DNA of 64,000 bases from Candidatus Multivoradales bacterium (GCA_965248925.1 CBDFLE010000006.1:2496001-2560000), one strand, 5' to 3'. Counted from the stretch's first letter, positions 5,939 through 52,258 are shown. Program-made: numbers and translations. Notes: generated by a model not told the origin, from the sequence alone.

Positions 5939-6199
5939 AGGGTAGTAGAGGGATGGCGAGCGGAACTGGGCCTTGGAAGTGACGAACGGTTAGCGCCTAG
6001 AATCGCGGCAGCGCACCAAACTGTAGATGATCAATGACTCGCCCGAGTATACCCTTACGGGGTGACGGCCGAACAGCGACCGCCGAACGGTAGTGGCCTA
6101 AGACTGTGTGGGCGGTGTGAGACTTGTCGATGAGAATCCATCGCGCTCCGCAGTTGCAGCCACGAAGCGTTCGAGTGAACACGCTGTTTGATTCCCCAC

Positions 6200-6410
6200 A
6201 ACACCCTAGAAGGGTTACAAGTGCTTCAGTCTCCCTGCAAGAAGACCGCCGGGCACCCTGTGGTTATGCCCCGTTCCCTAGCGTGAACGGTGGGGCTGTT
6301 TCCGGCCACGCCTCACGAGGTTGCCCACATGAGACGAACCCGCGGGTTTCGCGAGTCTCCTCATCAGGAGCCCTCCTTTCAGCGCTGCGCCCCTCGATTG
6401 GGGCACTAAG
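6200..6410 (-). ncRNA. Candidate structured RNA in element A
   Basis: Consecutive minus-strand hairpins: GCCCC-aatcga-GGGGC, CTCC-tgatga-GGAG, GAGAC..GTCTC, CCGTTC..GAACGG, GTCT..cttgcagg..AGAC. No convincing ORF. Confidence 0.4.
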
Positions 6411-6471
6411 ACTCTACTACGGCCCACCGAGCGCGCTATTCATCCTCCTGTAGAATTCTCCGCACCACCAC

Positions 6472-6524
6472 GGCGCGGCTAGGTTAGCCACCAAGCACCG
6501 GGCACCCGCCCCGGCCGTCGCGCC
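6472..6524 (+). repeat. Conserved GC-rich stem-loop, copy 1
   Basis: GGCGCGGCTAGGT...CCGGG...CCCGG..GTCGCGCC, preceded by TAGAATTCTC as in the other copies. Confidence 0.7.
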
Positions 6525-6552
6525 CCTCAACCGGGAGCATCACGGGGGATGC

Positions 6553-7192
6553 TTGGCGAATCGGAACAAGTACAGCGAGCACGAGCTGTGGCAGGTCGTC
6601 GAGTTGATCCATAAAGGCTTCGACATCCGAGCTGCTGCGCGTGAGGTCGGCGGCTGGAATGGCCAACAAGGGAGACCTCAAGAGATACGAACGGCGTCTC
6701 CGCAAGGCGTACTATCGGCGGAGAGCTACCGGCTCACTCTCCCTAGAAGACCCTAAGTGGTCTTCTCAAGAAGAGGCTATTCGGAGATCGTTCAGAGCCA
6801 ATGACAGCCATCGTACAAAGTGTCTTGAACAGATGGCGAGAGCTGAACGATGGCGAGAGCTGAACGTGAAGCGGCTGAGATCGGCTTCTCGCTGGAAGGC
6901 GCAGAAAAAATTCTGTAGCAATCTCTATACCGAGAGCTTGAGTCCTACACCGATCTCGTAAACGCAAGCCCAAGCGGCACAGCAGAGACGATGTTGAACA
7001 GCGAGGCGTCTGCCGAAGATGGCATCCGCCGACTTCGTGAGGCTCGTGTGGGGGCCCGCTAGCCTCACAGAGAAGATTCGGATCCTGTCGGCCTACCTCG
7101 AAGCCAAGCGCTACGTAGGTGCTGTTAGCGGGAAAAATTCCTCCACAGCTAATGGGGAACAAGTTCCAGGGCTTGGAGAAGAATCAGCCTAA
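6553..7192 (+). pseudogene. Frameshifted hypothetical gene with N-terminal HTH-like segment
   Basis: RBS GGGGGA. Protein-like text (MANRNKYSEHELWQVVELI.., ..KRYERRLRKAYY.., ..LTEKIRILSAYLEAK..) spread over successive frames. Confidence 0.45.
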
Positions 7193-7250
7193 GCCGGGGA
7201 ACAATTCCTGTTTGCCGGGGACAAATCCCGGCATCGCCAGGGACAAGCCT
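7154..7250 (+). repeat. Four phased RGGGA(A)CAA boxes
   Basis: Boxes start at 7154, 7196, 7217 and 7239 (spacing 42/21/22 bp). Confidence 0.65.
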
Positions 7251-7321
7251 GTTGAGGTAGCCGCGCAAGCTCTTTGATTACAGCAATTAGGTTTTACAGG
7301 GCATCTTGGTGTGGCGTAGAA

Positions 7322-7360
7322 CTAGAAAGCCGTAGCGATTAGAGCGCTACGGCTTTCTAG
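7322..7360. repeat. Perfect 16-bp inverted repeat
   Basis: CTAGAAAGCCGTAGCG-attagag-CGCTACGGCTTTCTAG. Confidence 0.85.
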
Positions 7361-7570
7361 AACCCAGGTGCAAGCACCGCACGAGGTTCCAGCAGGAATA
7401 GCCTACTCTGTGGCGGAGCTGTGCCGCAACCCCAAGAGGGTGAAGCATGGCCGACTGGAAGAGCATCAGAACGCGGCAACGGTGGCGGGTCTGGTGGCCC
7501 TTGCTGCCGCGTTCCTGGATACCGCCCGGCGGCAGTTGCCGGGTCCGACCCCCGCCTCTGTCGCCAGCCC

Positions 7571-7744
7571 TCACTCCTCAGCAGAATCGATCTTCAGCGC
7601 CCGCGCTTTCTCCAGGGCCGCCGAGATCATGTAGCTCGTCCGGTTGAGCCCGAGTATCTCGGCCGCTTCGTCAATCCGCTCGATCTGCTCGTCTGAGCAC
7701 CAGAGCTGCACTTTCTTTGTCTTCTTGGCTTTCTCTCCACTCAT
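7571..7744 (-). CDS. Ribbon-helix-helix repressor, 57 aa (below ORF-track cutoff)
   Basis: Translated by hand: MSGEKAKKTKKVQLWCSDEQIERIDEAAEILGLNRTSYMISAALEKARALKIDSAEE. Beta-helix-G-helix pattern, divergent from the element A transposase. Confidence 0.8.
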   Translation of the reverse strand: MSGEKAKKTKKVQLWCSDEQIERIDEAAEILGLNRTSYMISAALEKARALKIDSAEE

Positions 7745-7857
7745 GAGCACCAGATTACTCCCAAGAGACTCCTGGGGTCAACCTGAATTACTCCTATTCG
7801 GAGTATAAACCTGCCTAAATGGTTGAGAGATACTCCTGCGAGAAGTCAATTAGGATC
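7745..7857. promoter_or_regulatory. Divergent rhh/tnp promoter region of element A with ACTCC boxes
   Basis: Minus-strand TTGACC-N18-TAATCT. ACTCC at 7757, 7768, 7790, 7832 and inverted GGAGT at 7800. Confidence 0.65.
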
Positions 7858-8228
7858 GTGGAACGGCAGCCCACAACCCAATCGGCGATCGAGCCGCCTA
7901 CCTGCCCGCACTGCGGCGCGGGTTGGGTGCGTTAGGGCAAAGATCGGGACGGGCACCAGCGCTACAAGTGCATTTGAATCTCCGGATGCGCATGCGCCGC
8001 TTGACTCGGTTGACTGCCTGCACCGACGGAAACCGACCACCGATTCCGATTGAAAGTGACCAGTGATTCCAACGGAATCTGACCATCGATTCCGATCGAA
8101 AGTGACCACTTTTCCGGGTCGATCGGAATGGGTGGTCAGATTGGATCGGAATCCTGGCCACGGCGGAGTTCGACGGTAGCGCGCTCCTCACAATTGGGGT
8201 ATTCCAGCCTCCTTGAAAGGAGGATTGG

Positions 8229-9803
8229 ATGCCGAGAGTGAGGACATCGATGCGCAAGATACGCGAGGTACTGAGACTGAAATGGCAGCATGGCCTGTCG
8301 CACCGCCAGATCGGACGGTCGGTTCGGCTGGGCCACGGGACGGTGTGCAGCTACCTGCTGCGAGCCAAGGTTGAAGGCCTGAGCTGGGAGCAAGTAGCAG
8401 CTTTGAGCGACGCTGAGCTGGAGCAACGCCTGTACCCTCGGCCGCAGCCGCTTCGGAGGGGTGGTCAGCGAGCCTTGCCCGACTGGACCAAGGTGCATGG
8501 CGAGCTGAAGAAGAAGTGCGTAACCCTGTCGCTGCTGTGGCAGGAGTACCGGGAGGACCATCCTGACGGCTACGGTCTCAGCCGCTTCTGTCAGCTGTAC
8601 CGGATCTGGGAAGGGCGCCTGGATGTGTGCCTGCGCCAAGCCTACCGGGCGGGCGAGAAGCTGTTCGTCGACTATGCCGGACAGACCGTGAGGGTGATCG
8701 ACCCGGCGACTGGCAAAGAGCGCGAAGCGCAGATCTTCGTGGCGGTGCTGGGGGCGAGCAACTACACCTATGCCGAAGCAACGTGGAGCCAGGGCCTGGA
8801 GGACTGGATCGGCTCTCATGTGCGGACCTTCGCGGCTCTGGGCGGGGTGAGCGAGCTGGTGGTGCCGGACAATCTGAAGAGCGGCGTGACCAGCCCGTGC
8901 CGCTACGAGCCGGAGATCAATCGCACCTACGCGGAGTTGGCCGAGCACTACGGCGTGGCGGTGGTGCCGGCGCGGGTGAGGAAGCCCCAAGACAAGGCGA
9001 AGGTCGAAAACGGTGTATTGCAAGTGGAGCGCTGGATTCTGGCCCGGCTGCGTAACCAGCAGTTCTTCAGCCTGCGAGAGCTCAACGAGAGCATCGCGAA
9101 GCTTCTGGTCGAGCTTAACGACCGTCCGCTGAAGGTGTTGGGCGTCTCGCGCCGAGCGCTGTTCGAGCAGGTCGATCGTCCTGCTCTGGGTGCTTTGCCG
9201 CTCCAGCCCTACGAGCTTGCCGAATGGAAGAAGGTACGCGTTGCCCCGGACTACCACGTCGAGTTCGAGGGCCACTATTACAGTGTGCCGTACCAGCTGA
9301 TCAAGAAGCAGCTCGATCTGCGGGCGACGGCGCAACTGGTGGAGGTGCTCGATCGCGGCAAGCGTGTGGCTGCTCATCGTCGCAATCGGTGTCGGGGTCG
9401 GCACACGACCCAGAGCGAGCACATGCCCAAAGCGCACCAGGCGTACCTGGAGTGGACACCGACACGGCTGATCAGCTGGGCGGCGAAAACAGGCCAGGCG
9501 ACGGCCGAACTGGTGGAGACCATCATGCTTAACCGCTCCCATCCTCAGCACGGCTTTCGCTCGTGTCTGGGGCTGATGCGCCTGGGCAAGACCTATGGTG
9601 CCAATCGTTTGGAGGCTGCGTGCCGCCGCGCGCTCGCCATTCACGGCCTGTCCTACAAGAGCGTGAAGTCGATCCTGAAGAGCGGCCTGGACCAGCAAGC
9701 AGCGCCCGAGCCCACCGAAGTGACGGCGCCGATCGAGCACCGCAACGTCCGCGGCGCCAGCTACTACAGTGCCGCGCGCCGCGAGGAGACGCCGCCATGC
9801 TGA
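8229..9803 (+). CDS. istA: IS21 transposase IstA
   Basis: 'GEKLFVDYAG', 'VVPDNLKSGV', 'PQDKAKVE..V..VERWILA.LR'. Confidence 0.96.
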   Translation: MPRVRTSMRKIREVLRLKWQHGLSHRQIGRSVRLGHGTVCSYLLRAKVEGLSWEQVAALSDAELEQRLYPRPQPLRRGGQRALPDWTKVHGELKKKCVTLSLLWQEYREDHPDGYGLSRFCQLYRIWEGRLDVCLRQAYRAGEKLFVDYAGQTVRVIDPATGKEREAQIFVAVLGASNYTYAEATWSQGLEDWIGSHVRTFAALGGVSELVVPDNLKSGVTSPCRYEPEINRTYAELAEHYGVAVVPARVRKPQDKAKVENGVLQVERWILARLRNQQFFSLRELNESIAKLLVELNDRPLKVLGVSRRALFEQVDRPALGALPLQPYELAEWKKVRVAPDYHVEFEGHYYSVPYQLIKKQLDLRATAQLVEVLDRGKRVAAHRRNRCRGRHTTQSEHMPKAHQAYLEWTPTRLISWAAKTGQATAELVETIMLNRSHPQHGFRSCLGLMRLGKTYGANRLEAACRRALAIHGLSYKSVKSILKSGLDQQAAPEPTEVTAPIEHRNVRGASYYSAARREETPPC

Positions 9804-10561
9804 GGCACGCGACGCTCGATCAACTCGCCGCGCTCAAGCTCCACGGTATGGCCAAAGCCTTTGAGGAGCAGCTGTCGATGGTCGATGTCTCAGAGCTCTC
9901 CTTCGAAGAGCGCCTCGGGCTGCTGGTCGAGCGCGAAGCGACCGAGCGATCCAGCCGCCGCTTGATAGCGCGGTTGCGAAAAGCCAAGCTGCGCGAGCAG
10001 GCGGCCATCGAAGACATCGACTGGCGAGCCAAGAGGGGCCTGGACAAAGGCCAGATCCTGCGCCTGGCCTCGTGCCAGTGGATCGCCGAGCATCTCAACG
10101 TGCTGATCACCGGCAAGGCCGGGGTGGGCAAGACCTTTCTCGCCTGCGCCTTCGCGCACAAGGCATGTCGGGAGGGTTACACCGCTTTGTACCTGCGGGT
10201 GCCGAGGCTGTTTCGCCAGCTCGCCATCGCGCGGGGTGATGGTAGCTACGAGAAGCTGCTCAAGAGCTATGCTCGCACAGACCTGCTCATCCTCGACGAC
10301 TGGGGGCTGGCGCCGATCGGGGCCAGCGAGCGGCGCGACCTGCTCGAGATTCTTGAGGACCGCTACGGCAACCGCTCCACGCTGGTGACCTCCCAGCTAC
10401 CGGTTGAGAGCTGGTACGAGGTCATCGGCGATCCGACCTTGGCCGACGCCATCCTCGATCGCATTGTCCACGGCGCCTACAAGCTCGCGGTGGACGGTGA
10501 CTCCATGCGGGCGAAGAGAGCCGGCGGTATTCGCAAGGCCGCCCAGCGAGAGGCAAGGTGA
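9797..10561 (+). CDS. istB: IS21 helper ATPase IstB
   Basis: Walker A GKAGVGKT, 'LLILDDWG', 'ADAILDRIVH'. ATG overlaps the istA end. Confidence 0.96.
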   Translation: MLRHATLDQLAALKLHGMAKAFEEQLSMVDVSELSFEERLGLLVEREATERSSRRLIARLRKAKLREQAAIEDIDWRAKRGLDKGQILRLASCQWIAEHLNVLITGKAGVGKTFLACAFAHKACREGYTALYLRVPRLFRQLAIARGDGSYEKLLKSYARTDLLILDDWGLAPIGASERRDLLEILEDRYGNRSTLVTSQLPVESWYEVIGDPTLADAILDRIVHGAYKLAVDGDSMRAKRAGGIRKAAQREAR

Positions 10562-11094
10562 GATCCAAGAGCATGCTGAAGCGATCGCCGATCCGGACCC
10601 ATCAGCGGGCCTGCGGCCCGATCCGGACCCGACCCAAGATGGACTGTGGAAGCTGCCGCGGTTGTGGAAATCGCTCTGCGATTCCCACAACCGCTTGGAA
10701 AACGCCCCCCGGCCACCCACCCGCGTTTCCCACAGCTACGCACAGCCCCGACGACGGGTTATTTGAATACAATCAACCAAGAAGAAGAGCCGGAAGGAGG
10801 GCTCCAGCTACAGCGAAAGTGGACACTTACAACTGAGGAGAGCGCGAGCGTCGCTTCGCTCCGACAAGTGGTCGGTTTCGATCGGAATGGCTGGTCAGTT
10901 TCGTCGGAATAGGCAGTTGACGAACGGATTCAGCAAGAAATGGGCGAACCTCCGGGCAGCTGTGGCGCTGGAGATGGCGCACCACAACCTGTGCCGGATT
11001 CACGGTGCGATCCACTGCACCCCCGCGATGGCTGCCGGGATCTGCAAAGGCATCTGGTCGGTGGGCGATCTGGTGACGGCGTGAAGCCGCGAAG

Positions 11095-11463
11095 CTAAAC
11101 GGAGCTGCTCGGGAAAATGTACTTTGCTACCACCACGAATAGAGCAATGATGTTCACCGTTGTAGTGGCGAGCGCGGCTATTAGTACGGGGTCTGAAAGG
11201 TAGAACCCGAGGCAGTTGCCGAAGCCCTGAAAAAACAGCAGCACGACCATCGCAAGGAGCCAAAAACATAGGAGGCCATATAGCAGTGCTGCATATAGCT
11301 TCCGGTGGCCGATGTTCTGGGTGAGTTCGTCAACCAGCGCTTGTCGGTGATCGCGATCTAGATCGTCCTCCCACTCGCGGGTCTTCGCATCTGGCTGCGC
11401 CGCGGGCTCGGTTCGGTCTTCCTGCCCAATGTCCTTAATTGAGGGGCGACGATCCTCAGTCAT
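11095..11463 (-). CDS. Two-TM protein, putative toxin partner of the Panacea antitoxin
   Basis: Overlaps the antitoxin stop. Charged N-terminus plus two hydrophobic helices. Confidence 0.65.
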   Translation of the reverse strand: MTEDRRPSIKDIGQEDRTEPAAQPDAKTREWEDDLDRDHRQALVDELTQNIGHRKLYAALLYGLLCFWLLAMVVLLFFQGFGNCLGFYLSDPVLIAALATTTVNIIALFVVVAKYIFPSSSV

Positions 11464-11944
11464 GGCGTACTAGCTCGCGGAAGTGTCTCGCTATCAACTG
11501 ATTGTTGATCCGCTTGTTGTTGCGGCCCCGCCCTTCTTTCCAGGTCTGATCCCACGGAGTCCCGTCCTGGTGTGTCAGGTTGGAGAGCTGAACGCCTGTG
11601 TACTTGCTGTAAGCCTCCAAGACCTTGTCGAGCAACTCTTGGACTTGATTGTCGTCGTAGGCAACACTTGGGACAGAGATCTCGCCAAATCGACGAACGA
11701 TCGCCTCATTCTCGACAACAGGAGCATTGCCGTGCCTCTTGAACGCTTGGTAAAGACTCGGGATAACTGGCCCGTACTTCCACGCCTGGACGGGCTCGTC
11801 AATTAGGGCGATATCGAAGATTGCCAGGTGCCAGCCATGCGCTATGTAGACGAGCTTCTGGATCTTGAGATGATCCAAGACCTTCCCGGACATATTGGCC
11901 TTGTCGATGAAGTAGTTGGCTACAGCGAGTGCTGGATACTGCAT
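11456..11944 (-). CDS. Panacea/DUF4065 (GepA/SocA-like) antitoxin
   Basis: 'VANYFI', 'LKIQKLVYIAHGWHL', 'QAWKYGPVIPSLY', 'LSNLTH..GTPW'. Confidence 0.9.
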   Translation of the reverse strand: MQYPALAVANYFIDKANMSGKVLDHLKIQKLVYIAHGWHLAIFDIALIDEPVQAWKYGPVIPSLYQAFKRHGNAPVVENEAIVRRFGEISVPSVAYDDNQVQELLDKVLEAYSKYTGVQLSNLTHQDGTPWDQTWKEGRGRNNKRINNQLIARHFRELVRHD

Positions 11945-12082
11945 GCTTACGCCTCCTTTACGCCATCCTATAACGGCGATTCGCTGATGGCAATGGGGAA
12001 AGATCGCGCCATTACGTGAGGTACCCTAGCAGCCTTGTCAAGTGCGGGCCGTGGGATGAGCGGGCCGATCGGACAGCGAACC

Positions 12083-12140
12083 GGCGCGGCGGGCCGAGGT
12101 ACGGGGAGCCCGGCGTTCGGCGGCCAGACCTAGCCGCACC
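12083..12140 (-). repeat. Conserved GC-rich stem-loop, copy 2 (after element A radC stop)
   Basis: rc GGTGCGGCTAGGTCTGGCCGCCGAACGCCGGG...CTCGGCCCGCCGCGCC. Confidence 0.8.
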
Positions 12141-12148
12141 TGAGAATT

Positions 12149-12529
12149 CTACCAGCTACCGCGCCGGGACAGCGAAACCCAGCGTCCAGCCGATCCCGCG
12201 ATCACATGATCCACAAGCTCGATGCCGATCAGCTCGGCGGCTCGCGCCATTCGGCGGGTGAAGATCAAGTCTTCCTTGCTCGGCGACGGGTCGCCGCTGG
12301 GGTGGGTGTGGAACAGCAGCAGCGCCGTAGCCTGGTGGTGTAGCGCCTCAGCGAAGACCGGCCGCGGGTCGGCTGCTGCTCGGATCGCCGTCCCGCGGAA
12401 GATCTCGCGTTCAGCGATCAGCCAATGCCGGCAGTCGAGGAACAGCACGCCCACCACTTCCTGGCCGAGCCCACCGTAGTGCAGCAGCGCGTATTCGGCC
12501 ACAGTGCCCGGAACATCGAGCAGCCTACC
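12149..12529 (-). pseudogene. radC: 3' half of element A radC (JAB domain), interrupted by element B
   Basis: 'QEVVGVLFLD', 'HTHPSGDPSPSKED'. Begins exactly at the element B TSD. Confidence 0.9.
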
Positions 12530-12698
12530 GGTGGTGTCCTAACAGTGTGTTGGTCCGATAGGGGCGGGTGAAAGGCAGGCTGGCGGGTGGTACGTTCGCC
12601 GCGAAGCCGAGGCGGTGAACGTCTCCACCTTACCACCCAGCGGCTCTGACGGCGGCGGTAACCGACGCCAGAGCCTAGCCACGCAGAGGACATAGCCA

Positions 12699-12989
12699 AT
12701 GCGAGACCGCCGTAAGTGTACCGTCTACGACGTGCAGAGAGAGCTTGCTGCTCTCGTTCCAAACCTACAGACCGTTGACCTCCGACTAGCCCGGATCGCC
12801 CGCGCGGTTCAGCCATCGCCACATCTCCTACCCGTAGAGCTTCGCGGCCGGGTCGAAGCCGTGCGCTCCGATTTGATCGGCGACGCCATCGCGACGCTGG
12901 CCGAGCTTTCCCAGCTCACTGAAGACGACGCGGCGCGCCACCGGGTGCAGCTCCTCGACCTGGCTTTGAGGCTGGCCGATGCAAAGTAA
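12699..12989 (+). CDS. Small helical protein coupled to radC
   Basis: Near-identical paralog at 17904-18197. RBS AGAGGA, overlaps the radC start. Confidence 0.8.
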   Translation: MRDRRKCTVYDVQRELAALVPNLQTVDLRLARIARAVQPSPHLLPVELRGRVEAVRSDLIGDAIATLAELSQLTEDDAARHRVQLLDLALRLADAK

Positions 12990-13626
12990 CCTACGGCCGC
13001 GCGACCGGCTGCTACGCCACGGCGCAGCCGGCCTGACGGATGCTGAGCTGCTGGCGGTGCTATTGAGGTACCGTTCGGCAGAGAAGGCGGCAGAGCGTCT
13101 CCTGTCGGCTGCTGGTGGTCTGAGAGGGCTACTGCGCGCCGCGCGGCCAGTCTTGTGCCGCAACGGTGCCACTGAGGGCAGAGCAGCTGTGGTACTGGCC
13201 GCTGGCGAGCTTATGCGGCGGCTGGCAGAGCATCAGCTCGACCGCCGCAGGCTGCTCGATCAGCCGATAGCCCTGGCCGAGTATGTAGCAATGAAGTACA
13301 GCGAGCTTGGCCAAGAGGTTCTTGGCGCGATCTACCTCGATTGCCGTCACCGGCTGATTGCCGAGCGAGAGATCTTCCGCGGCACAGCTACCCGAGCAGC
13401 GGCTGAGCCTGGGCCGATCTTGCGAGAAGCGCTCCAGCACCACGCCGCGAAGCTGATCATTTTTCACACCCACCCCAGCGGCGACCCATCGCCGAGCAAC
13501 GAGGATCTGCTCTTCACCGAGAGGATGGCGAAGGCCAGCGAATTGATTGGCGTCAAGCTGGTGGACCACTTGATTGTTGGAGCGCTCGGCCGCTGGGTGT
13601 CCCTGTCCCGGCGTGGTAGCTGGTAG
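12979..13626 (+). CDS. radC: RadC/JAB (UPF0758) family protein
   Basis: 'RPRDRLLRHGAAGLTDAELLAVLL', intact JAMM motif E..HTHPSGDPSPSNED, 'LVDHLIV'. Confidence 0.94.
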   Translation: MQSNLRPRDRLLRHGAAGLTDAELLAVLLRYRSAEKAAERLLSAAGGLRGLLRAARPVLCRNGATEGRAAVVLAAGELMRRLAEHQLDRRRLLDQPIALAEYVAMKYSELGQEVLGAIYLDCRHRLIAEREIFRGTATRAAAEPGPILREALQHHAAKLIIFHTHPSGDPSPSNEDLLFTERMAKASELIGVKLVDHLIVGALGRWVSLSRRGSW

Positions 13627-13634
13627 GATTCTCG

Positions 13635-13692
13635 GGCGCGGCTAGGTCTGGCCGCCGAACGCCGGGCACCCCGTTGCTCGGCCCGCCGCGCC
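13635..13692 (+). repeat. Conserved GC-rich stem-loop, copy 3 (after element B radC stop)
   Basis: GGCGCGGCTAGGTCTGGCCGCCGAACGCCGGG...CTCGGCCCGCCGCGCC. Confidence 0.8.
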
Positions 13693-13722
13693 ATCATCCC
13701 TCCTCTCAGATCGTCTAGATTC

Positions 13723-14802
13723 TCAATTCTTCGGTTTCGCTGTTGGCATCATCATCGTATCTCCATATCTTGGCAATGCGCGGTTGATCCGGTTTTCGAA
13801 ATCTTCCCAATCATTGTCTTCACACGTCTTCATGATGACGATCAAGTTCGTGAGCTGATCTCGCAACTCTTGAATTCCGAAATCTGGTGAAAGGCTCTGA
13901 AACAGCTTGCGCGACCTGCGCCCTTTTGGATTCTTAGGGGTCAACTTCTTTAGCGCCTTCAAAACGCCGGGTGCCAGACGCGAGTAAACAATGTTGTTGG
14001 TAACGTGGCCAATCCACTGAGGCCGCTTCCCGCCAATGCTTGGGTACGACAGGCCCTTGAGTCGAAACACCTGTTTATAGAATTCGTCTGGGAATCGCTT
14101 TGTCCACTTCGAGTACTCGTCCGTTAGGTACTTGTCGAGGATAGCCTGAAGAGCTAGCCGATCTCGAACGTCCTGGTATCCGGTCGCTTCATCAACGAGG
14201 GCGTCGATACCAGTCTTGGCGAGTGATCTGATTAGTGCCTCTGCCTTCTGCGCCTTGCCGAGTTGCTGTTCTTGAAGCTCTCCGGCTGCGCGAGCTTCAA
14301 GCCACACTTCGCACACGTCAACCAAGATGGAGGCTTCGTACCCCTTGACTATCTTCTTTCCATGAACGTATTCAATAGGATTCAGGGGCCCGGCCATTAA
14401 ATGGCTGGGAATAAAAGACTTAAGCCTAGCAGGAGCCAGAAACAACGGGACAAGGGCCCGGCCATCCGATGCCGCTTTGAGCCGCTTCGAAGCGCCGCTA
14501 CGACCACCCAGAATGGCTCTTGTAATCCCGTGTTCAGACAGCACACGGCGGACCGTATTTTCGTTTCCGCTCTCGCCTTCGATAACAGCGCATGGCAATA
14601 TTGTTCCACCGAGGTCAATCGATGCCGCGTAGTTCGAGAGAACGCGCGGCAAACTATCTGGAGGGTCCTCTTGGTCCCATCTTGCGCGTGCAGCATTCGA
14701 AGCCTGCGCAGATCTTTCTTCTGGTGACATCTTCTCCGCCCTCGCGTATCCACCGATAGCCCTTCCCGTTGGTCCTTCAGTTGGCATTTGCAAGCACTCC
14801 AT
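13723..14802 (-). CDS. P63C-domain protein (phage/MGE associated; start may be 14787)
   Basis: 'LAKTGIDALVDEATGYQ', 'W.KRFPDEFYKQ.FRL', 'GHVTNNIVYSRLAPGVL'. N-terminal 'GGYARAEKMSPEERS...AARARW'. Confidence 0.88.
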   Translation of the reverse strand: MECLQMPTEGPTGRAIGGYARAEKMSPEERSAQASNAARARWDQEDPPDSLPRVLSNYAASIDLGGTILPCAVIEGESGNENTVRRVLSEHGITRAILGGRSGASKRLKAASDGRALVPLFLAPARLKSFIPSHLMAGPLNPIEYVHGKKIVKGYEASILVDVCEVWLEARAAGELQEQQLGKAQKAEALIRSLAKTGIDALVDEATGYQDVRDRLALQAILDKYLTDEYSKWTKRFPDEFYKQVFRLKGLSYPSIGGKRPQWIGHVTNNIVYSRLAPGVLKALKKLTPKNPKGRRSRKLFQSLSPDFGIQELRDQLTNLIVIMKTCEDNDWEDFENRINRALPRYGDTMMMPTAKPKN

Positions 14803-14886
14803 TGGAAATTATACGTGCATCTTACGATAGTTTCCCAAAAATGCAAGCATTTCTACAAACTATCCCGCCTGATGCCTGCATTATTC

Positions 14887-15876
14887 TTATGCCGCCACCA
14901 GATCACCGACCGACCAGATCCCTTTGCAGAGGTTAGCCGCCATCGCTGGCGTGCAGCGGATCGCGCCGTGGATGCGGCAGAAGTTGTGGTGCGCCATCTC
15001 AAGCGCTACGGCTGCCCGCAGGTTCGCCCACTTCTTGGAGAACCCGTTGGTCAACCGCGTCAGACGGCGCATCCTCATGCGGAGGTTGAGATTCTGTCGC
15101 TCGATGTGCGACGTGCAGATCTGCTTGCGATCAGGCTTGCCGTGGATGGCCCGCTTCTCGGAGGCTATTATCGTCGCCGGTGAGTACCGGCGCTGGTCCT
15201 CTGAAGAGCCTTTGCCGTAGTGCTTGACTACCTGGCCATACTGAACGCGGGTGCCGAGCTGGTGAACGATGGGATCAGCATAGCTGTCGAGCCCGTCCGT
15301 GCTGAGCTGGAATTCGCCCTTCGTCGCGCGGTCGAGCTTGCCGATGAAGAACGAGGTATCGAGCGCCGTGCGGTGGCCCAGGTGATGAGCCAAGATCAGC
15401 TTGCTCTCGCGCTCGATCGCCACGTAGGTCCAGGCATCGCCGATCTCTGGATCGCTGAGACTCTTGAATCTCTTCGTCTTGGCCTTCATCCCGACGAATC
15501 CCCAGATTTCGTCAGCCTGCACGTCCTTGACCTCGACATCTCGCACGATCCGCGCGAGCAGGCTTTCGCACTTGCCACCGACTACGCGGAGCAGGCGGCA
15601 GATCGTGTCCCGATGGACGCCAGTCACGCGCTCAGCAGCGCGAATGCTCATGCCTTCGACCAGCAGCGAGACAACCGTGGTGGCCTTCTCCACCGGTAGC
15701 CGCATCGTGCCCAGCGGACGACGCGGGCGAACGGCGAAGGTCTTGCGGCAGCTCGCGCCTTTGCACTTGTAGCGCTGGTGCCCGTCGCGGTCTTTGCCCC
15801 AACGCACGAAGCCTGCCCCGCAATGGGGACAAGTCGTCGGCTCGATCGCCGGTTGGGGTTGGGGCCGCGTCGTCAT
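14887..15876 (-). CDS. IS1-family single-ORF DDE transposase
   Basis: Zn ribbon CPHC..C..C, HTH 'GMSIRAAERVTGV', 'QADEIW', 'STDG', 'IERQNL..R..RRLTR.TNGFSK', 'TPAMAA'. Confidence 0.92.
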   Translation of the reverse strand: MTTRPQPQPAIEPTTCPHCGAGFVRWGKDRDGHQRYKCKGASCRKTFAVRPRRPLGTMRLPVEKATTVVSLLVEGMSIRAAERVTGVHRDTICRLLRVVGGKCESLLARIVRDVEVKDVQADEIWGFVGMKAKTKRFKSLSDPEIGDAWTYVAIERESKLILAHHLGHRTALDTSFFIGKLDRATKGEFQLSTDGLDSYADPIVHQLGTRVQYGQVVKHYGKGSSEDQRRYSPATIIASEKRAIHGKPDRKQICTSHIERQNLNLRMRMRRLTRLTNGFSKKWANLRAAVALEMAHHNFCRIHGAIRCTPAMAANLCKGIWSVGDLVAA

Positions 15877-15950
15877 GTGATGAGTATATCCAATGGATAT
15901 CCATAGTGTCAAGGGTTGACTTGGATATTTTTTGGATATATTCTGGATAC
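15877..15950. promoter_or_regulatory. Back-to-back tnp/rhh promoters with TGGATA boxes
   Basis: Minus TTGACA-N18-TATACT, plus TTGACT-N17-TATTCT. TGGATA at 15922/15933/15944 and palindrome TGGATATCCA at 15894. Confidence 0.8.
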
Positions 15951-16136
15951 ATGGCTGACACCGAACAACCTGACCGGCAGCACTCGAAATCGAGGCTGCT
16001 TCGCTTCAAGCCGGAACACGACGCGCTGATATGCGAAGCTGCTGAAAACTCAGGGCTTAGCGTTACGAGCTGGATTCGTGAGCGGCTGATTCGCTTTGCA
16101 CGACAAGAGATAGAGGAGGCGGGCCGTCGCGCGTAA
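15951..16136 (+). CDS. Ribbon-helix-helix repressor, 61 aa
   Basis: 'SRLLRFKPEHDALICEAAENSGLSVTSWIRERL'. ATG lies just after the -10 box. Confidence 0.8.
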   Translation: MADTEQPDRQHSKSRLLRFKPEHDALICEAAENSGLSVTSWIRERLIRFARQEIEEAGRRA

Positions 16137-16217
16137 CGGCGGCCCGCCTGGGCTATATCTGGGACCGTGGTAGCAGTTGCCACAGGATGAGTAGAGACTG
16201 CCGGCGATCCCAGAACG

Positions 16218-16240
16218 TGCCCATTGACATGGGCATTTTT
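16218..16240 (+). terminator. Intrinsic terminator after rhh
   Basis: TGCCCAT-tgac-ATGGGCA-TTTTT. Confidence 0.7.
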
Positions 16241-16287
16241 CTAACTTTCGCGCTTGACTACGGAAGGCTTTCGCCGTAACGTCAAAC

Positions 16288-16416
16288 GCAGCAACCCCTT
16301 ACGGCTCGCTTTTGAGCAGCCCTCCGGGTGACTAGCTTGAGAGTCCTGCAAGACAAAGCTCAAGCCAGTATTGTTTGCTAGATCAGGGCCGGCCACGCGC
16401 CGGCCCTTTCGTTTTT
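16288..16416 (+). ncRNA. Candidate ~130-nt small RNA
   Basis: TTGACT-N17-TAACGT promoter (16254-16282), closing stem GCAGCAA/TTGTTTGC, two internal hairpins, terminator AGGGCCGGC/GCCGGCCCT plus T-rich tail. Confidence 0.6.
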
Positions 16417-16422
16417 GCTGTC

Positions 16423-16992
16423 TTAGTTGGAGCCTCCCAGATTGTGAAAGCGCGCTACTGCTACCGGCGATAACGGGCCATGGTCTTCCGCTTGTTTTTC
16501 GCCGCCTCCCCCCGTATCAACGGAGCCATAAACTTCGGCTACCGTCTCGGGTTCAAACATGTCTGGTCGGCCGTATACGAAAGGCGCCATACTCCCAGCA
16601 GGTGCCCGGCGCCTTTCCAGCTTCCTAGCCTTGGCCAGTTTCCTTGTCGAAACGCTCATGGTCTGACGTGACAGGCTAGTGCCATCATCTCTCAACAGGC
16701 GCATCAATTCAGCTTGAGTGACCGGCCTCTCAAGGCGCGGCAGATAGGCCTCAATGAGTTCTAGAGATGTCGCCCGTCTTGCTGGTCTCTCGGGGCGTGA
16801 TTGCCGCTCGATTACCGGTTTCTCAACGGCTCCCTGCTTCAAGGAAGCCGAGGTCTGCTCGGGCTGGGCTGTTGAGCTACTCCGGGAAAGGCCGAGGAGA
16901 GCATCGATGTGGGCCAGCATTGATGTGGCCTCGCGCTTCACAGACTCCCAGTGTCCCTTCAGCTCGCCTAGGCTCTTGTTCTTCAAGTCCAT
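16423..16992 (-). CDS. Coiled-coil plus winged-helix-like DNA-binding protein
   Basis: N-terminal amphipathic helix, basic linker, 'LIEAYL...PVTQAELMRLL..G...SRQTMSV..RKL.K..KL.R..' pattern. Confidence 0.6.
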   Translation of the reverse strand: MDLKNKSLGELKGHWESVKREATSMLAHIDALLGLSRSSSTAQPEQTSASLKQGAVEKPVIERQSRPERPARRATSLELIEAYLPRLERPVTQAELMRLLRDDGTSLSRQTMSVSTRKLAKARKLERRRAPAGSMAPFVYGRPDMFEPETVAEVYGSVDTGGGGEKQAEDHGPLSPVAVARFHNLGGSN

Positions 16993-17127
16993 TTGCTCGG
17001 CACCTTTTCTAGACAGGCGCCCAAAGAGGGCTGCCTGGTTGCGGCAGACGGGAACCTTGAGCCACCAATCATGCCTGTGTCCAGCCTGCTAGCCATCGGG
17101 CGCGGGCCGGCTCGTGCGATAAGTTGT

Positions 17128-17187
17128 ATTTTGACGCCATCGGGATAGGTTGTCAACCGCGCCGCGGAATGATTGACACGCTGTCAA
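17128..17187 (-). promoter_or_regulatory. Promoter for 16423-16992 plus upstream palindrome
   Basis: Minus TTGACA-N17-CAAAAT. TTGACA-cgc-TGTCAA at 17173-17187. Confidence 0.55.
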
Positions 17188-17438
17188 CCCAGTTACCAGA
17201 CGGCCGCCATCCGCCGAGTGCCATGCGCAGCGCGAGGGCTAAGAGCTATCAGATGCTAAGATGACTCGTCGCGGCCCGGAATGGCTGGTCAAGCCAAGGC
17301 ATCGTTAGGCGCGGCAAGACGCTGCGCAGGCACCAGGAGAGGCGGCTTCGGCCGCCTTTCGGCGATCAGGACTTCTTTTGCAAATCGGCCAGGAGGCGCT
17401 ATCCAGGCGCCACTGAAGCCAAAGGAGCGCTTGGGGGA

Positions 17439-17582
17439 ATGAGCTTTCTTAGTAGCTTTGGTAAGGAGTTCAGCTCTTCGATGGACGCCATAGGCGGGTT
17501 GGTCGGCAGCTGCTTACCGTGGGCCGCAATATTGTTAGCAGCGCTGCTGGTCTTCGGCTGGGTCATGAAGTTCTTGTTCTAG
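17439..17582 (+). CDS. 47-aa hydrophobic small protein (below ORF-track cutoff)
   Basis: MSFLSSFGKEFSSSMDAIGGLVGSCLPWAAILLAALLVFGWVMKFLF. Purine-rich sequence upstream. Confidence 0.55.
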   Translation: MSFLSSFGKEFSSSMDAIGGLVGSCLPWAAILLAALLVFGWVMKFLF

Positions 17583-17638
17583 ATAATCTAGGGCTCCACC
17601 CGGTCGAGAAGGCGCCAACACTGAGTTAGGACACTACC

Positions 17639-17917
17639 AGCCTACCGGCGATCCAGCCGGTAGGCTGCCAACCGCCGCACAAGCTCACCAGCGGCCAGGA
17701 GGACGGCAGCTCTGCCGTCTGTAGCACTGTTCCGCCGTAGCGCCGGCCGTTCGCTGCGCAGCAGCCCTTGCAACCCACCAGCAGCCGTCAAGAGCCGCTC
17801 TGCCGCGTTCTCAGCAGCTCGGCGGCGCAGCAACACCGACAACAGCTCAGCGTCCGTCAGACCAGCCGCGCCATGCCGTAGCAACCGGGCCCGCGGCGCA
17901 AGCTCAGCCCTCGGAAT
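17639..17917 (-). pseudogene. radC: 5' half of element A radC
   Basis: 'RLLRHGAAGLTDAELLSVLL...LAAYRLDRR' ends at the element B TSD. Confidence 0.9.
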
Positions 17918-18197
17918 CGGCCAGCCGTAGCGACAGGTCGAGCAGCTGCACTCGATGGCACAGCGCGTCCTCTTCGGTCAGTTGCGACAGCTCTTCTAGC
18001 GTCGCGATGGCGTCGCCGAGCAGATCGACGCGCACCGCCTCCGCTCGGCCACGGAGCTCGACCGGCAAAAGGTGCGGGGATGGCTGGATCGCCTTAGCGA
18101 TCCTGGCTAGACGAAGGTCAACGGTCTGTAGGTTGGGGACGAGAGCAGCAAGCTCTCTCTGCACGTTGTAGACGGTACACTTCCGGCGGTCGCGCAT
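17904..18197 (-). CDS. Small helical protein coupled to radC (element A copy)
   Basis: Paralog of 12699-12989 with a conserved ~170-bp leader back to the TIR. Confidence 0.8.
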   Translation of the reverse strand: MRDRRKCTVYNVQRELAALVPNLQTVDLRLARIAKAIQPSPHLLPVELRGRAEAVRVDLLGDAIATLEELSQLTEEDALCHRVQLLDLSLRLADSEG

Positions 18198-18422
18198 TGG
18201 GCTGTGTCCTCTGCGTGGCTAGGCTTCGGCGACGGTGACAGCCGTCGTCGAGGTCGCTGGTGGTAGGGTGGAGGGCGTTCGCTGCCCGGGCTTCGCGGCA
18301 AACGTACTACCCGCCCGCCTGCCGCTCACCCGCCCCTATCGGACCAACACACTGTCAGGACACCACCCGCCGAACAGCAACCAGCACCCGGCGAGCTGGG
18401 CAGGCGCGGATTTGGAGACCTC

Positions 18423-52012: not shown

Positions 52013-52258
52013 CCCCTGTCAACGCTTCGGCCGGACCCTCGCGAGACCGACCGCATGACTCGGGGTCAACGTGGTTCGCTACTCCTTCGTCGTAGAGGAC
52101 TCACACCTCCTACATCCTGCCGGTCTTAACCGGCGCTCTCTGCCTGGCACTTCTCTAGCGGTGGATCGAGGTTCTCTGGCTGACTTTCGGCGGTGTAGGT
52201 GGTTCAGCTGAAGACTTGGTCATCTTAAACTCCTTCCGCGATCCCATCGCAAACCTAC

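What the first reader, a model, noticed from the sequence alone, without database searches (positions are those of the whole stretch)
12530..17638. Modular radC/JAB-carrying IS1-family transposon family with swappable cargo
Seen: A and B share an invariant plan: TIR, ~170-bp conserved structured leader, 97-aa ORF, radC (intact JAMM motif in B), stem-loop, cargo slot 1, transposase, divergent RHH, cargo slot 2, TIR. Slot 1 holds a Panacea TA pair (A) or a P63C protein (B). Slot 2 holds unrelated regulators, peptides and candidate RNAs. Established: some IS1-family members carry passenger genes, and RadC/JAB proteins are MGE-associated with unresolved function. Inference: ORF97-radC is a core transposon function (processing of intermediates or anti-defence) rather than a passenger. 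I know of no description of this architecture. Best candidate for a new system in the window.
Basis: partly seen in the sequence, partly recalled or inferred. Interest (0 to 1): 0.85.

Follow-up and report, generated by a model that had tools for sequence, protein, structure and literature searches.

The report
Nested IS1-type transposons carrying RadC cargo
An intact 5.1-kb IS1-family insertion sequence with passenger genes has jumped into the radC gene of an older, decayed sibling; its small ORF plus RadC pair is long-kept cargo, not part of the transposition machinery, and the small ORF looks like a new partner of RadC.

Summary
Window 12530-17638 (element B) is one transposable unit with 24-bp GGTRGTG inverted ends and a perfect 8-bp target duplication. 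It sits inside the radC gene of a sibling, element A (6089-18367, minus strand). A has its own 8-bp duplication and is wrecked by B and by an IS21-type element.

A and B share the plan: end, leader, 96/97-aa ORF, radC, structured motif, cargo, IS1-type transposase, divergent RHH gene, cargo, end.

Of 80 loci encoding the closest transposase relatives (43-62% identity), 0 hold radC or the ORF. Fifty-two of the 80 are bounded by the same ends plus target duplications (1.8-8.1 kb) and carry unrelated cargo. A third copy in the same genome lacks the ORF. The element is therefore a transporter IS, a known kind, and ORF97-radC is lineage-specific cargo.

The cargo is old and under purifying selection (dN/dS 0.10-0.23).

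New lead: ORF97 belongs to an unnamed family of ~100-aa helical proteins (57 representatives in 1.84 billion). Two representatives are natural fusions to the RadC JAB domain, so ORF97 and RadC probably work together. What they do is unknown.

Interest is moderate.

The parts
12522..12529 (.). Left copy of B's 8-bp target-site duplication, AGCCTACC
   Evidence: identical to 17639-17646
12530..12553 (+). B left terminal inverted repeat
   Evidence: only the first ~24-25 nt are shared with the ends of relatives
12554..12698 (+). Leader of the ORF97-radC module, specific to the A-D lineage. A GAGGA Shine-Dalgarno-like site lies before the ATG.
   Evidence: Highly conserved in 4 copies. Fold z -3.64. 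No covariation. No sigma-70-like promoter found by the simple scan.
12699..12989 (+). ORF97 (96 aa): helical protein, member of an unnamed family that is fused to the RadC JAB domain in 2 relatives
   Evidence: dN/dS 0.10-0.23 in this frame. 57 profile hits. Fusions P0148 and P0156. Three helices.
12979..13626 (+). radC (215 aa): HhH-type N-domain plus JAB domain with an intact HxHx7Sx2D motif
   Evidence: dN/dS 0.15-0.19 against copies A and C
13634..13698 (+). Conserved three-way-junction motif 3' of radC, resembling Rfam int-alpA below threshold
   Evidence: 27.2 bits against a gathering score of 35.8. 19 pairs, 1 compensatory. Only 4 copies in the genome, all in this IS lineage. MFE z only -1.44.
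13723..14802 (-). Cargo slot 1 of B: P63C-domain protein (359 aa)
   Evidence: Pfam P63C 2.2e-28. P63C genes recur in 8 of 80 relatives' loci.
14887..15912 (-). IS1-family transposase: zinc finger, HTH, DDE. Single ORF; the true start is probably the ATG at 15876.
   Evidence: C28 C31 C50 C55, D134, D206, E271 conserved in 49 relatives; promoter-like site 15912-15883
15906..16136 (+). Divergent RHH (HicB/TacA-like) gene, probably the regulator of the transposase. The true start may be 15951.
   Evidence: Pfam HicB 2.9e-5. A homologue in the same place in 16 of 80 relatives. Back-to-back promoter-like sites.
16423..16992 (-). Cargo slot 2 of B: 189-aa ORF without family
   Evidence: no match; terminator-like hairpins at 16217-16236 and 16385-16407
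17439..17582 (+). Cargo slot 2 of B: 47-aa hydrophobic ORF (unverified)
   Evidence: no match
17615..17638 (-). B right terminal inverted repeat
17639..17646 (.). Right copy of B's target-site duplication, AGCCTACC
6089..18367 (-). Element A: older sibling transposon, flanked by the duplication CGCCGAAC (6081-6088 and 18368-18375). It is disrupted by B and by an IS21-type element.
17904..18197 (-). ORF97 of A (97 aa, 86% identical to B's)
17645..17911 (-). N-terminal part of A's radC, cut by B
   Evidence: 75% identity to B residues 2-90
12152..12526 (-). C-terminal part of A's radC, with the JAB motif still intact
12077..12141 (-). A's copy of the 3' motif
11456..11944 (-). Cargo slot 1 of A: SocA/Panacea antitoxin-like gene
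   Evidence: Pfam 4.6e-20; NCBIfam SocA 115 bits, below its cut-off of 190
11095..11463 (-). Cargo slot 1 of A: 122-aa ORF with a hydrophobic C-terminus, candidate toxin partner (inferred)
10896..11084 (+). C-terminal remnant of A's transposase (residues 280-341)
8075..10902 (+). IS21-family element (IstA 8229-9803, IstB 9800-10561) inserted in A's transposase. About 600 bp of the transposase gene is missing.
   Evidence: (I8)
7867..7971 (+). N-terminal remnant of A's transposase, with in-frame stops
7571..7744 (-). A's own divergent RHH-type ORF (57 aa), not similar to B's by tblastn
   Evidence: Frame translation; the RHH call is my reading of the sequence.
6471..6532 (+). Second copy of the structured motif in A's slot 2, inverted relative to the copy after radC
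   Evidence: Rfam int-alpA 32.8 bits against 35.8; model R1 61 bits

Best explanation
Element B is an intact 5,109-bp transporter insertion sequence (tIS) of the IS1 family.

How it moves. A single-ORF transposase (zinc finger, HTH, DDE) recognises the 24-bp GGTRGTGTCCTAAC... ends and moves everything between them, making an 8-bp target duplication. This part is shown by the anatomy of B and A and of 52 bounded relatives.

Regulation. A small RHH protein, transcribed divergently from back-to-back promoter-like sites, most likely represses the transposase. This is inferred.

The cargo. The rest of the element is cargo. The block at the left end (leader, ORF97, radC, 3' structured motif) was acquired once by the ancestor of the copies in this genome. 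The radC probably came from the host lineage's own radC paralogues. The block has been kept under purifying selection while the two other slots were exchanged:
- A carries a Panacea toxin-antitoxin-like pair.
- B carries a P63C protein.
- C carries two unknown ORFs.

B then inserted, probably by chance, into the radC of its decayed sibling A.

ORF97 and RadC. They form one functional pair. Their genes overlap, and in 2 distant relatives the ORF97-like helical domain is fused to the JAB domain in place of the usual HhH domain. My best guess for the pair's role is a nucleic-acid-processing or anti-defence function that helps the element or its host persist, not a step of transposition. This is inference, about 50% among functional readings.
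For: Unit mobility:
- TIRs plus perfect 8-bp duplications for B and A.
- Contigs of 4 runs of one sample bridge both B junctions.

IS1 family:
- Pfam and NCBIfam matches.
- Zinc-finger cysteines and D134/D206/E271 are conserved in 49 relatives.
- Plasmid relatives at 38-41% identity are annotated 'IS1 family transposase'.

Cargo, not core:
- RadC 0 of 80 and ORF97 0 of 80 relatives' loci.
- 52 of 80 relatives are bounded by a GGT... TIR pair (at least 17 of 24) plus a duplication. Their median length is 3,572 bp, and 51 of 52 are at least 2 kb.
- Of the 327 ORFs in these elements, 198 are singletons.
- 4 of 20 cluster representatives have any Pfam match.
- Copy C lacks ORF97.
- The leader beyond nt ~25 is not shared with relatives.

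Long retention:
- ORF97 dN/dS is 0.10-0.23, with dS 0.72-0.80.
- radC dN/dS is 0.15-0.19, with dS up to 1.04. The transposase C-terminus gives dS 0.87.

Origin of radC: on a quick tree the IS-borne RadC is sister to own-genome paralogues (SH-aLRT 94).

Pairing of ORF97 and RadC:
- The genes overlap by 11 nt.
- Among 57 profile hits, the two longest (P0148, 231 aa; P0156, 229 aa) carry the ORF97-like part at residues ~10-94 and Pfam RadC at ~104-223.
- The fusion folds as a three-helix bundle plus a RadC fold: pLDDT 89.4, and Z 20.2 to PDB 2qlc.
- In another genome (G405) two weak family members lie directly after radC genes (hhalign probability 93.9%).
Against: - The relatives sampled are only 43-62% identical. 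The host is the only representative of its family among the genomes held, so closer IS relatives with radC may exist unseen.
- Within the lineage, the radC block is the only non-transposase part kept in A, B and C. It sits at the end with a conserved leader and is under purifying selection. This is also what an accessory function would look like.
- Only one copy (B) is intact, and no empty site or second insertion of B was seen, so current activity is not shown.
- Fusion evidence rests on 2 of 57 proteins, and the genomic context of the other homologues could not be fetched.
- The G405 matches are weak (E 5.6e-5 and 9.2e-5 per genome). records one TGA stop inside each match, although the frame translations read through to a stop at the protein's end.
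- The RHH regulator role and the promoters are consensus-level inference.
- The 3' motif is below Rfam's threshold, and its MFE is not unusual (z -1.44).
- The same Rfam model gave sub-threshold matches in 2 of 14 control genomes.
Confidence: 0.75

Rival explanations
1. One reading: ORF97-RadC is an accessory part of the transposition machinery of this sub-lineage. It would, for example, process transposition intermediates or the donor gap, and be needed for efficient movement.
For: - The block is kept in A, B and (radC only) C, at the same end and with a conserved leader.
- It is under purifying selection over dS ~0.7-1.0.
- RadC has been proposed to be a nucleic-acid-processing enzyme (passages of PMC5512222).
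Against: - 0 of 80 transposase relatives carry it, while 52 of them are complete elements with target duplications.
- Copy C lacks ORF97.
- The genome holds about 8 further full-length radC paralogues outside this IS, so a trans supply cannot be excluded, but no dependence is indicated.
Confidence: 0.1
2. ORF97-RadC is a toxin-antitoxin-like or addiction pair that stabilises the element. One protein would neutralise the other.
For: - It is a two-gene operon with overlapping reading frames.
- It sits on a mobile element next to a Panacea pair in A.
- A small helical partner is typical of antitoxins (general knowledge, recalled).
- E. coli cryptic prophages place RadC-like genes beside toxin-antitoxin pairs (recalled, not tested).
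Against: - Copy C keeps radC without ORF97.
- Copy D keeps ORF97 with only a radC stump. Neither half therefore seems lethal alone, although both copies may be dead.
- Natural fusions of the two parts are unusual for toxin-antitoxin pairs.
- Canonical chromosomal RadC proteins are not known as toxins (recalled).
Confidence: 0.08
3. B is not one element but a plain IS next to unrelated genes. The apparent ends would be chance repeats or an assembly artefact.
For: Only one intact copy exists in the genome.
Against: - Perfect 8-bp duplications lie exactly outside 24-bp inverted ends in both B and A.
- B splits a recognisable radC gene whose two halves continue across it.
- The same end sequence bounds 52 relatives.
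- Independent short-read contigs bridge both junctions.
Confidence: 0.02

Closest known systems
Transporter insertion sequences (tIS) of the IS1 family
   Same: - A DDE transposase with an IS1-type zinc finger and catalytic region.
- About 24-bp inverted ends beginning GGT.
- 8/9-bp target duplication.
- Passenger genes inside the ends.
The tIS concept comes from passages read in PMC7986276, PMC9330008 and PMC3129680.
   Different: - The transposase is one ORF without the InsA/InsB' frameshift of IS1 itself.
- Cargo lies on both sides of the transposase.
- The cargo includes a RadC pair, a divergent RHH gene and a structured motif.
- From memory, ISfinder lists an IS1 subgroup (ISMhu11) of up to ~4.6 kb. 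The held library has no paper with that name, and I could not check whether these elements belong to it.
RadC/YicR family (PF04002; PDB 2qlc) and RadC-like JAB proteins of mobile elements
   Same: B's RadC matches the full-length RadC model: HhH-type N-domain plus JAB, with an intact metal motif. RadC domains are known on conjugative elements and prophages and have been proposed to process nucleic acids (passages of PMC5512222).
   Different: - Here the gene rides on an insertion sequence.
- It is preceded by an overlapping 96-aa helical ORF.
- In 2 relatives the homologous domain replaces the HhH domain by fusion.
[quoted passage not shown]
Rfam int-alpA RNA motif (RF02996)
   Same: The 65-nt element after radC has the same three-way junction and the conserved CUAG and CGAA joining bases.
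   Different: - All four copies score below the gathering score: 32.8, 27.2, 20.6 and 19.7 bits against 35.8.
- There is no U-tract.
- No integrase or alpA gene lies nearby.
Tn554 family (insertion into radC)
   Same: A mobile element interrupts a radC gene (passage of the TnCentral preprint).
   Different: - Tn554 uses tyrosine recombinases and a specific site in the chromosomal radC.
- Here a DDE element with no evident target consensus hit the radC of a sibling element (52 duplications tabulated).
- I take this to be coincidence.

Membership tests
IS1 family of insertion sequences | DDE transposase of IS1 type | tested here: met
   - Pfam DDE_Tnp_IS1: 33.2 bits (cut-off 24.1).
- NCBIfam transpos_IS1: 97.1 bits, just under its cut-off of 100.
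- D134, D206 and E271-R-x-N are conserved in 49 relatives.
- tblastn finds annotated IS1 family transposases.
IS1 family of insertion sequences | N-terminal zinc-binding domain followed by an HTH | tested here: met
   - NF050000 IS1/IS1595 zinc domain: 38.1 bits (cut-off 28).
- C28, C31, C50 and C55 are conserved.
- The HTH_29 match is weak only.
IS1 family of insertion sequences | Terminal inverted repeats of ~20-25 bp and an 8-9-bp target duplication (family values recalled) | tested here: met
   - B and A each have 24-bp ends and an 8-bp duplication.
- All 52 relatives counted as bounded have an 8/9-bp duplication of at least 7 of 8 or 8 of 9 bases; this was the filter used.
IS1 family of insertion sequences | Transposase made by a -1 frameshift between insA and insB' (feature of IS1 proper, recalled) | tested here: not met
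   The transposase is a single 341-aa ORF. Single-ORF IS1 subgroups exist by recall, so this does not exclude the family.
Transporter IS (tIS) | Genes unrelated to transposition lie between the IS ends and move with it | tested here: met
   - Five or more non-transposase ORFs lie inside B's ends and duplication.
- Cargo differs among A, B and C.
RadC family (PF04002 / NF000642) | JAB fold with the HxHx7Sx2D metal motif, and an N-terminal HhH-type domain | tested here: met
   - Pfam RadC 2.3e-34 and UPF0758_N 1.3e-11.
- NF000642: 181.6 bits (cut-off 180).
- The motif was read in the translation.
Panacea (SocA-like) toxin-antitoxin pair, in element A | Panacea-domain antitoxin next to a toxin gene | tested here: inconclusive
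   - Pfam SocA_Panacea 4.6e-20.
- NCBIfam SocA: 115 bits, below its cut-off of 190.
- The neighbouring 122-aa ORF has no family, so toxicity is untested.
Rfam int-alpA RNA (RF02996) | Score at or above the curated gathering score of 35.8 bits | tested here: not met
   The four copies score 32.8, 27.2, 20.6 and 19.7 bits. It is a resemblance only.

The most novel reading that the evidence does not exclude
ORF97-family helical proteins and RadC JAB enzymes form a previously unrecognised two-component module. The components occur as separate overlapping genes, as adjacent genes, or as one fused protein. Mobile elements, including an insertion sequence, keep this module for their own benefit, for example to process DNA or nucleotides on arrival or to counter a host defence. 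The helical partner would target or gate the JAB enzyme in place of the usual HhH DNA-binding domain. This would give the long-unsolved RadC family a testable partner.
Probability: 0.2. Interest if true: 0.65.

Novelty: new variant of a known kind. Interest (0 to 1): 0.4.

Why it matters
Three things follow from this finding.

1. It gives a cleanly bounded, nested example of a little-described clade of IS1-type transporter IS. The clade is common in Acidobacteriota and Gemmataceae genomes. These elements shuttle 1-7 kb of mostly unknown genes on both sides of the transposase. Such elements are easily missed by annotation, and they move small gene sets without plasmids or phages.

2. It corrects an attractive but wrong idea. 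RadC is not part of this transposon's machinery.

3. It yields a concrete lead on RadC, whose function has been disputed for decades. A small helical protein family is translationally coupled to RadC here and fused to the RadC JAB domain elsewhere. That makes a partner-based biochemical test possible.

Tried and rejected
**More members of the radC-carrying lineage**
- A 21-nt invariant leader word in metagenome contigs gave 1 stretch (L099). It has no other similarity to the genome or to any of the nine query proteins, so it is probably chance.
- ORF97 as a single protein found 4 proteins among 147 candidates of 5.77 billion. Three come from this genome and one from a 502-bp ENA contig.
- 2 of 401 genomes of the phylum matched. 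One is G000 itself. The other is a 6.4e-4 partial match inside a 970-aa frame, which I take as spurious.

**ORF97 family profile (alignment A4)**
- 1 of 401 genomes of the phylum matched, and that one is G000.
- Viral contigs: 42 pattern matches, none confirmed.
- 2 of 401 genomes of the phylum of G401 gave weak partial matches.
- The 'longer' word-index search found none. The tool itself calls this weak evidence.
- Protein atlas: no usable hit.

**Structure work**
- ORF97 alone, folded with 4 sequences, gave pLDDT 61.2. This is too weak to search with.
- Complex prediction of RadC with ORF97 returned no answer (score 0.00 against a mark of 0.32). It is evidence neither for nor against binding.
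- VIA-align wide search with the fusion model: the N-terminal bundle gave only generic helical matches at Z 8.8 or below, which the tool's own notes rate as uninformative for helical bundles.

**Leader and 3' motif**
- The leader has no Rfam match above threshold in the window, L101 or L102, and no covariation.
- The Rfam int-alpA search of the own genome scored only 150 of 1,465 candidates. It missed the 6472 copy.
- My own model R1 (150 of 13,630 candidates scored) and nhmmer over the whole genome found only the four known copies.

**Expression and mobility**
- No RNA holder was listed among the runs.
- All four runs come from one sample and are kept as contigs. They cannot show rare empty sites, and none was seen.

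**Other points**
- Target preference: 52 duplications show no clear consensus, so I dropped the idea that radC is a preferred target.
- Element D (C5:1618153-1619568) has two left-type ends in inverted orientation but no matching flanks. I could not explain it as a simple cassette.
- Removing B and one duplication copy does not restore A's radC frame. One extra base remains and gives a TAG at the junction. I cannot tell whether A's radC was already broken.
- Literature: 'ISMhu11' gave 0 papers. 'RadC' + 'insertion sequence' + 'passenger gene' gave 1 paper, which is irrelevant apart from Tn554. 'int-alpA' gave 2 papers, seen in the listing only.
- No supplementary files were asked for. ISfinder and TnCentral records may bear on the novelty claim, and I could not see them.

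Full report
**1. What is at 12530-17638**

The stretch is one transposable element, B.
- Its ends are 24-bp imperfect inverted repeats. The left end is GGTGGTGTCCTAACAGTGTGTTGG and the right end, reverse-complemented, is GGTAGTGTCCTAACTCAGTGTTGG.
- The 8 bases AGCCTACC stand directly outside both ends, at 12522-12529 and 17639-17646.
Shuffles gave a mean of 1.1 matches.
- Short-read contigs from four runs of one sample cross both junctions without change, so the arrangement is not an assembly artefact.

**2. B sits inside another copy, A**

The repeat search and tblastn show this.
- The sequence left of B (12152-12526, minus strand) is the C-terminal 125 residues of a RadC.
- The sequence right of B (17645-17911, minus strand) is its N-terminal 89 residues.
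- These are followed by a second ORF97 (17904-18197), a second leader and a third end at 18367.
- The partner end is at 6089, with 2 mismatches in the 14-mer. The same 8 bases, CGCCGAAC, flank 6089 and 18367.

Element A is therefore 6089-18367 on the minus strand. It entered as a unit and was later hit twice.
- B landed in its radC.
- An IS21-type element landed in its transposase: IstA 288.9 bits and IstB 268.8 bits in NCBIfam, with inverted repeats at 8075-8114 and 10863-10902.
- Of A's transposase, only residues ~16-50 (with stops) and 280-341 remain.

Taking out B and one duplication copy leaves one extra base and a TAG in A's radC. I cannot say whether that predates B.

**3. Shared plan**

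Both elements run in this order: end, ~145-nt leader, ORF97, radC (overlapping ORF97 by 11 nt in B), a conserved ~65-nt motif, cargo slot 1, transposase on the other strand, a divergent small RHH-type gene, cargo slot 2, end.
- Slot 1 holds a SocA/Panacea gene plus a 122-aa membrane ORF in A, and a P63C-domain gene in B.
- B's RHH matches HicB/TacA models. A's RHH is a different sequence of the same kind (my reading).
- Promoter-like sites stand back to back between B's transposase and RHH genes, one at 11 of 12 and one at 9 of 12 consensus positions. This suggests a shared control region and shorter true ORFs (starts at 15876 and 15951). This is inference.

**4. The family in this genome**

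The window is C6:2496001-2560000 of a 7.98-Mb genome in six contigs.
- The transposase has four matches in the genome: B (intact), the two remnants of A, and a half-gene at C6:132227-132757.
- The half-gene belongs to element C. C has a left end at C6:135331, a leader 91% identical to B's, a radC 88% identical, two unknown ORFs in slot 1 and no right end.
- In C, ORF97 is missing. The ORF97 start codon runs straight into radC codon ~8, across a short repeat shared by the two gene starts.
- A fourth remnant, D (C5:1618153-1619568), has end, shortened leader, ORF97 (76% identical) and a radC stump. A second left-type end follows in inverted orientation, and the flanks do not match.
- So the genome holds one intact and three defective copies, 75-91% identical in DNA where they align.

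**5. Is ORF97-radC core?**

The genome collection gave 119 relatives of the transposase. The best 80 (43-62% identity) were kept with up to 7 kb of flank on each side. Most come from Acidobacteriota, and some from Gemmataceae and other Planctomycetota.
- tblastn finds RadC in 0 of 80 loci and ORF97 in 0 of 80.
- With alignments of 30 or more residues, an RHH homologue is present in 16 of 80, a P63C protein in 8 of 80 and a Panacea protein in 1 of 80.
- I wrote a finder for GGT... inverted ends (at least 17 of 24 matching) combined with an 8- or 9-bp duplication (at least 7 of 8 or 8 of 9). It bounds 52 of the 80. The other 28 are mostly on short contigs or gave only low-quality pairs, and I dropped them.
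- The 52 bounded elements are 1,771-8,084 bp long, with a median of 3,572 bp. Fifty-one are at least 2 kb. The median non-transposase DNA is 1,572 bp on the RHH side and 1,008 bp on the other side.
- Their 327 ORFs fall into small clusters, and 198 are singletons. Only 4 of 20 cluster representatives have any Pfam match: P63C, RHH, HTH plus M78 peptidase, and HTH.
- Beyond the first ~24-25 nt, B's leader is not shared with any relative's end.

The whole clade thus consists of IS elements that carry variable passengers, and it transposes without RadC.

IS elements with passenger genes are an established category, transporter IS or tIS. I read passages on this in PMC7986276, PMC9330008 and PMC3129680.

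IS1-family membership is supported by several results.
- Pfam DDE_Tnp_IS1 matches, as does the NCBIfam IS1/IS1595 zinc domain. NCBIfam transpos_IS1 scores 97.1 bits, just under its cut-off of 100.
- The zinc-finger cysteines and D134, D206 and E271 are conserved in 49 relatives.
- Plasmid relatives at 38-41% identity are annotated as IS1 family transposases.

**6. The cargo is not junk**

- ORF97 has dN/dS of 0.10, 0.23 and 0.17 in the three pairwise comparisons, at dS 0.72-0.80. The two shifted frames and two of the three reverse frames give values above 1. The third reverse frame, the codon-matching antisense one, gives 0.25.
- radC gives 0.15 (B against C), and 0.15 and 0.19 (B against the two halves of A), at dS up to 1.04. 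The transposase C-terminus gives 0.20 at dS 0.87.
- Backbone and radC block therefore diverged together for a long time under constraint, while the slots changed.
- A's radC fragment still has the JAB motif.
- The genome has 14 RadC matches, about eight of them further full-length paralogues at 54-64% identity.
- Five of these paralogues lie at the edge of a repeat of at least 6 kb. The repeat holds a TPR protein and a 1,576-aa RHS-repeat protein.
- On a quick tree the IS-borne RadC is sister to these paralogues (SH-aLRT 94, not starred; the careful search was unfinished). Outside the genome, the nearest RadC proteins are 55-60% identical, from Acidobacteriota.
- Capture from the host lineage is the simplest reading.

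**7. ORF97 has relatives, and two are fused to RadC**

Word-based and single-sequence searches made ORF97 look like an orphan. A profile of the four close sequences, run against 1.84 billion representatives, changed that.
- It found 57 proteins at E of 1e-3 or better, and 5 at 1e-10 or better. Nearly all are 90-126 aa and match end to end.
- Thirty-two of them align well around a motif LPxELRGxxxAVRxDLLxDAIxTL.
- The two longest hits, P0148 (231 aa) and P0156 (229 aa), carry this domain at residues ~10-94. A RadC JAB domain follows (Pfam 3.6e-30 and 2e-32), without the usual N-terminal UPF0758/HhH domain.
- I folded P0148 with an alignment of fusions, ORF97 relatives and RadC relatives. It gives three long helices (pLDDT above 90) plus a RadC fold: mean pLDDT 89.4, Z 20.2 to PDB 2qlc.
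- pTM is 0.60, so the packing of the two domains is uncertain.
- In the genome that holds the closest transposase relative (G405), two weak family members lie directly downstream of radC genes (hhalign probability 93.9%).

Gene overlap, fusion and adjacency together argue that ORF97 and RadC act together. The passages of PMC5512222 that I read list HhH, ArdC-N and helicase fusions of RadC and propose a nucleic-acid-processing role. This helical partner is not among them.

**8. RNA-like elements**

The ~65 nt after radC are more conserved than radC itself in A, B and C.
- They fit a three-way junction resembling Rfam int-alpA, but score below threshold: 27.2, 20.6 and 19.7 bits against 35.8.
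- A fourth, more diverged copy scores 32.8 bits in A's slot 2, on the other strand.
- Of 19 pairs, six show one-sided, pair-preserving changes and one shows a two-sided change.
- A model built from the four copies, and nhmmer, find no further copy in the genome.
- Against a structural role: the MFE is ordinary (z -1.44), four related sequences prove little, and the Rfam model also gave sub-threshold matches in 2 of 14 control genomes.

The leader folds well (z -3.64) but shows no covariation. Its predicted long-range stem pairs the element's terminal GTGTCCT with the GAGGA site before ORF97. By analogy with other IS (recalled), this could silence read-through transcripts from outside. This is speculation.

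**9. Verdict**

- The kind is known: an IS1-family transporter IS.
- The proposed core role of RadC is contradicted by the relatives.
- What is new is modest: an IS that carries a RadC module, a widespread cargo-rich IS1 clade in soil phyla, and a candidate RadC partner family supported by two natural fusions.
- I could not query ISfinder or TnCentral. The novelty claim and the RadC-adjacency count therefore remain open.

Noticed in passing
window 52002-52103 (-): Match to Rfam group II intron domain model D1-D4-6 at 79.4 bits (gathering score 49). A group II intron lies about 35 kb from the finding.
   Followed up: no
window 8075-10902: IS21-family element (IstA 8229-9803, IstB 9800-10561) with 40-nt inverted repeats. 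It sits in A's transposase, and about 600 bp of that gene is missing beside it.
   Followed up: partly
G000 C5:271900, C6:781573, C6:1175812, C6:3021189, C6:4480916 (L100 for the first): Five radC paralogues (60-64% identical to B's) sit at one edge of a repeat of at least 6 kb (83-97% identity). The repeat also holds two unknown genes, a TPR protein and a 1,576-aa RHS-repeat protein. RadC therefore seems linked to multi-copy RHS loci in this genome.
   Followed up: partly
G000 C6:4120080-4120406 (-), L107:1480-2031: A distant ORF97-family domain (profile E 9e-7; hhalign probability 91%) ends a 183-aa ORF. The ORF lies between a Cas1-like gene (my reading of its translation) and what looks like a CRISPR array (repeated translated motif).
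   Followed up: partly
G000 C5:1618153-1619568 (L102): Element D: left end, shortened leader, ORF97 and a radC stump, then ~870 bp of unrelated DNA and a second left-type end in inverted orientation. It has no target duplication, and its origin is unexplained.
   Followed up: partly
window 12526/17645 junction: After removing B and one duplication copy, A's radC is out of frame by one base and reads TAG at the junction. Either A's radC was already broken or the insertion was not clean.
   Followed up: partly
L013, L022, L029, L039, L055, L061, L079 and others: P63C-domain genes recur in relatives of this IS (8 of 80 loci). They mostly lie upstream of and divergent from the transposase, where B has its RHH gene. 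In B the P63C gene lies downstream instead.
   Followed up: partly
window 22175-22876 vs 29807-30520; 50349-50648 vs 53705-54004: Diverged direct repeats (66-83% identity) 7.6 kb and 3.4 kb apart, probably paralogous genes.
   Followed up: no
window 12530-12540 with 12687-12697: The predicted leader fold pairs the element's terminal bases with the GAGGA site just before ORF97. The pairing is conserved in all four copies but without covariation.
   Followed up: partly
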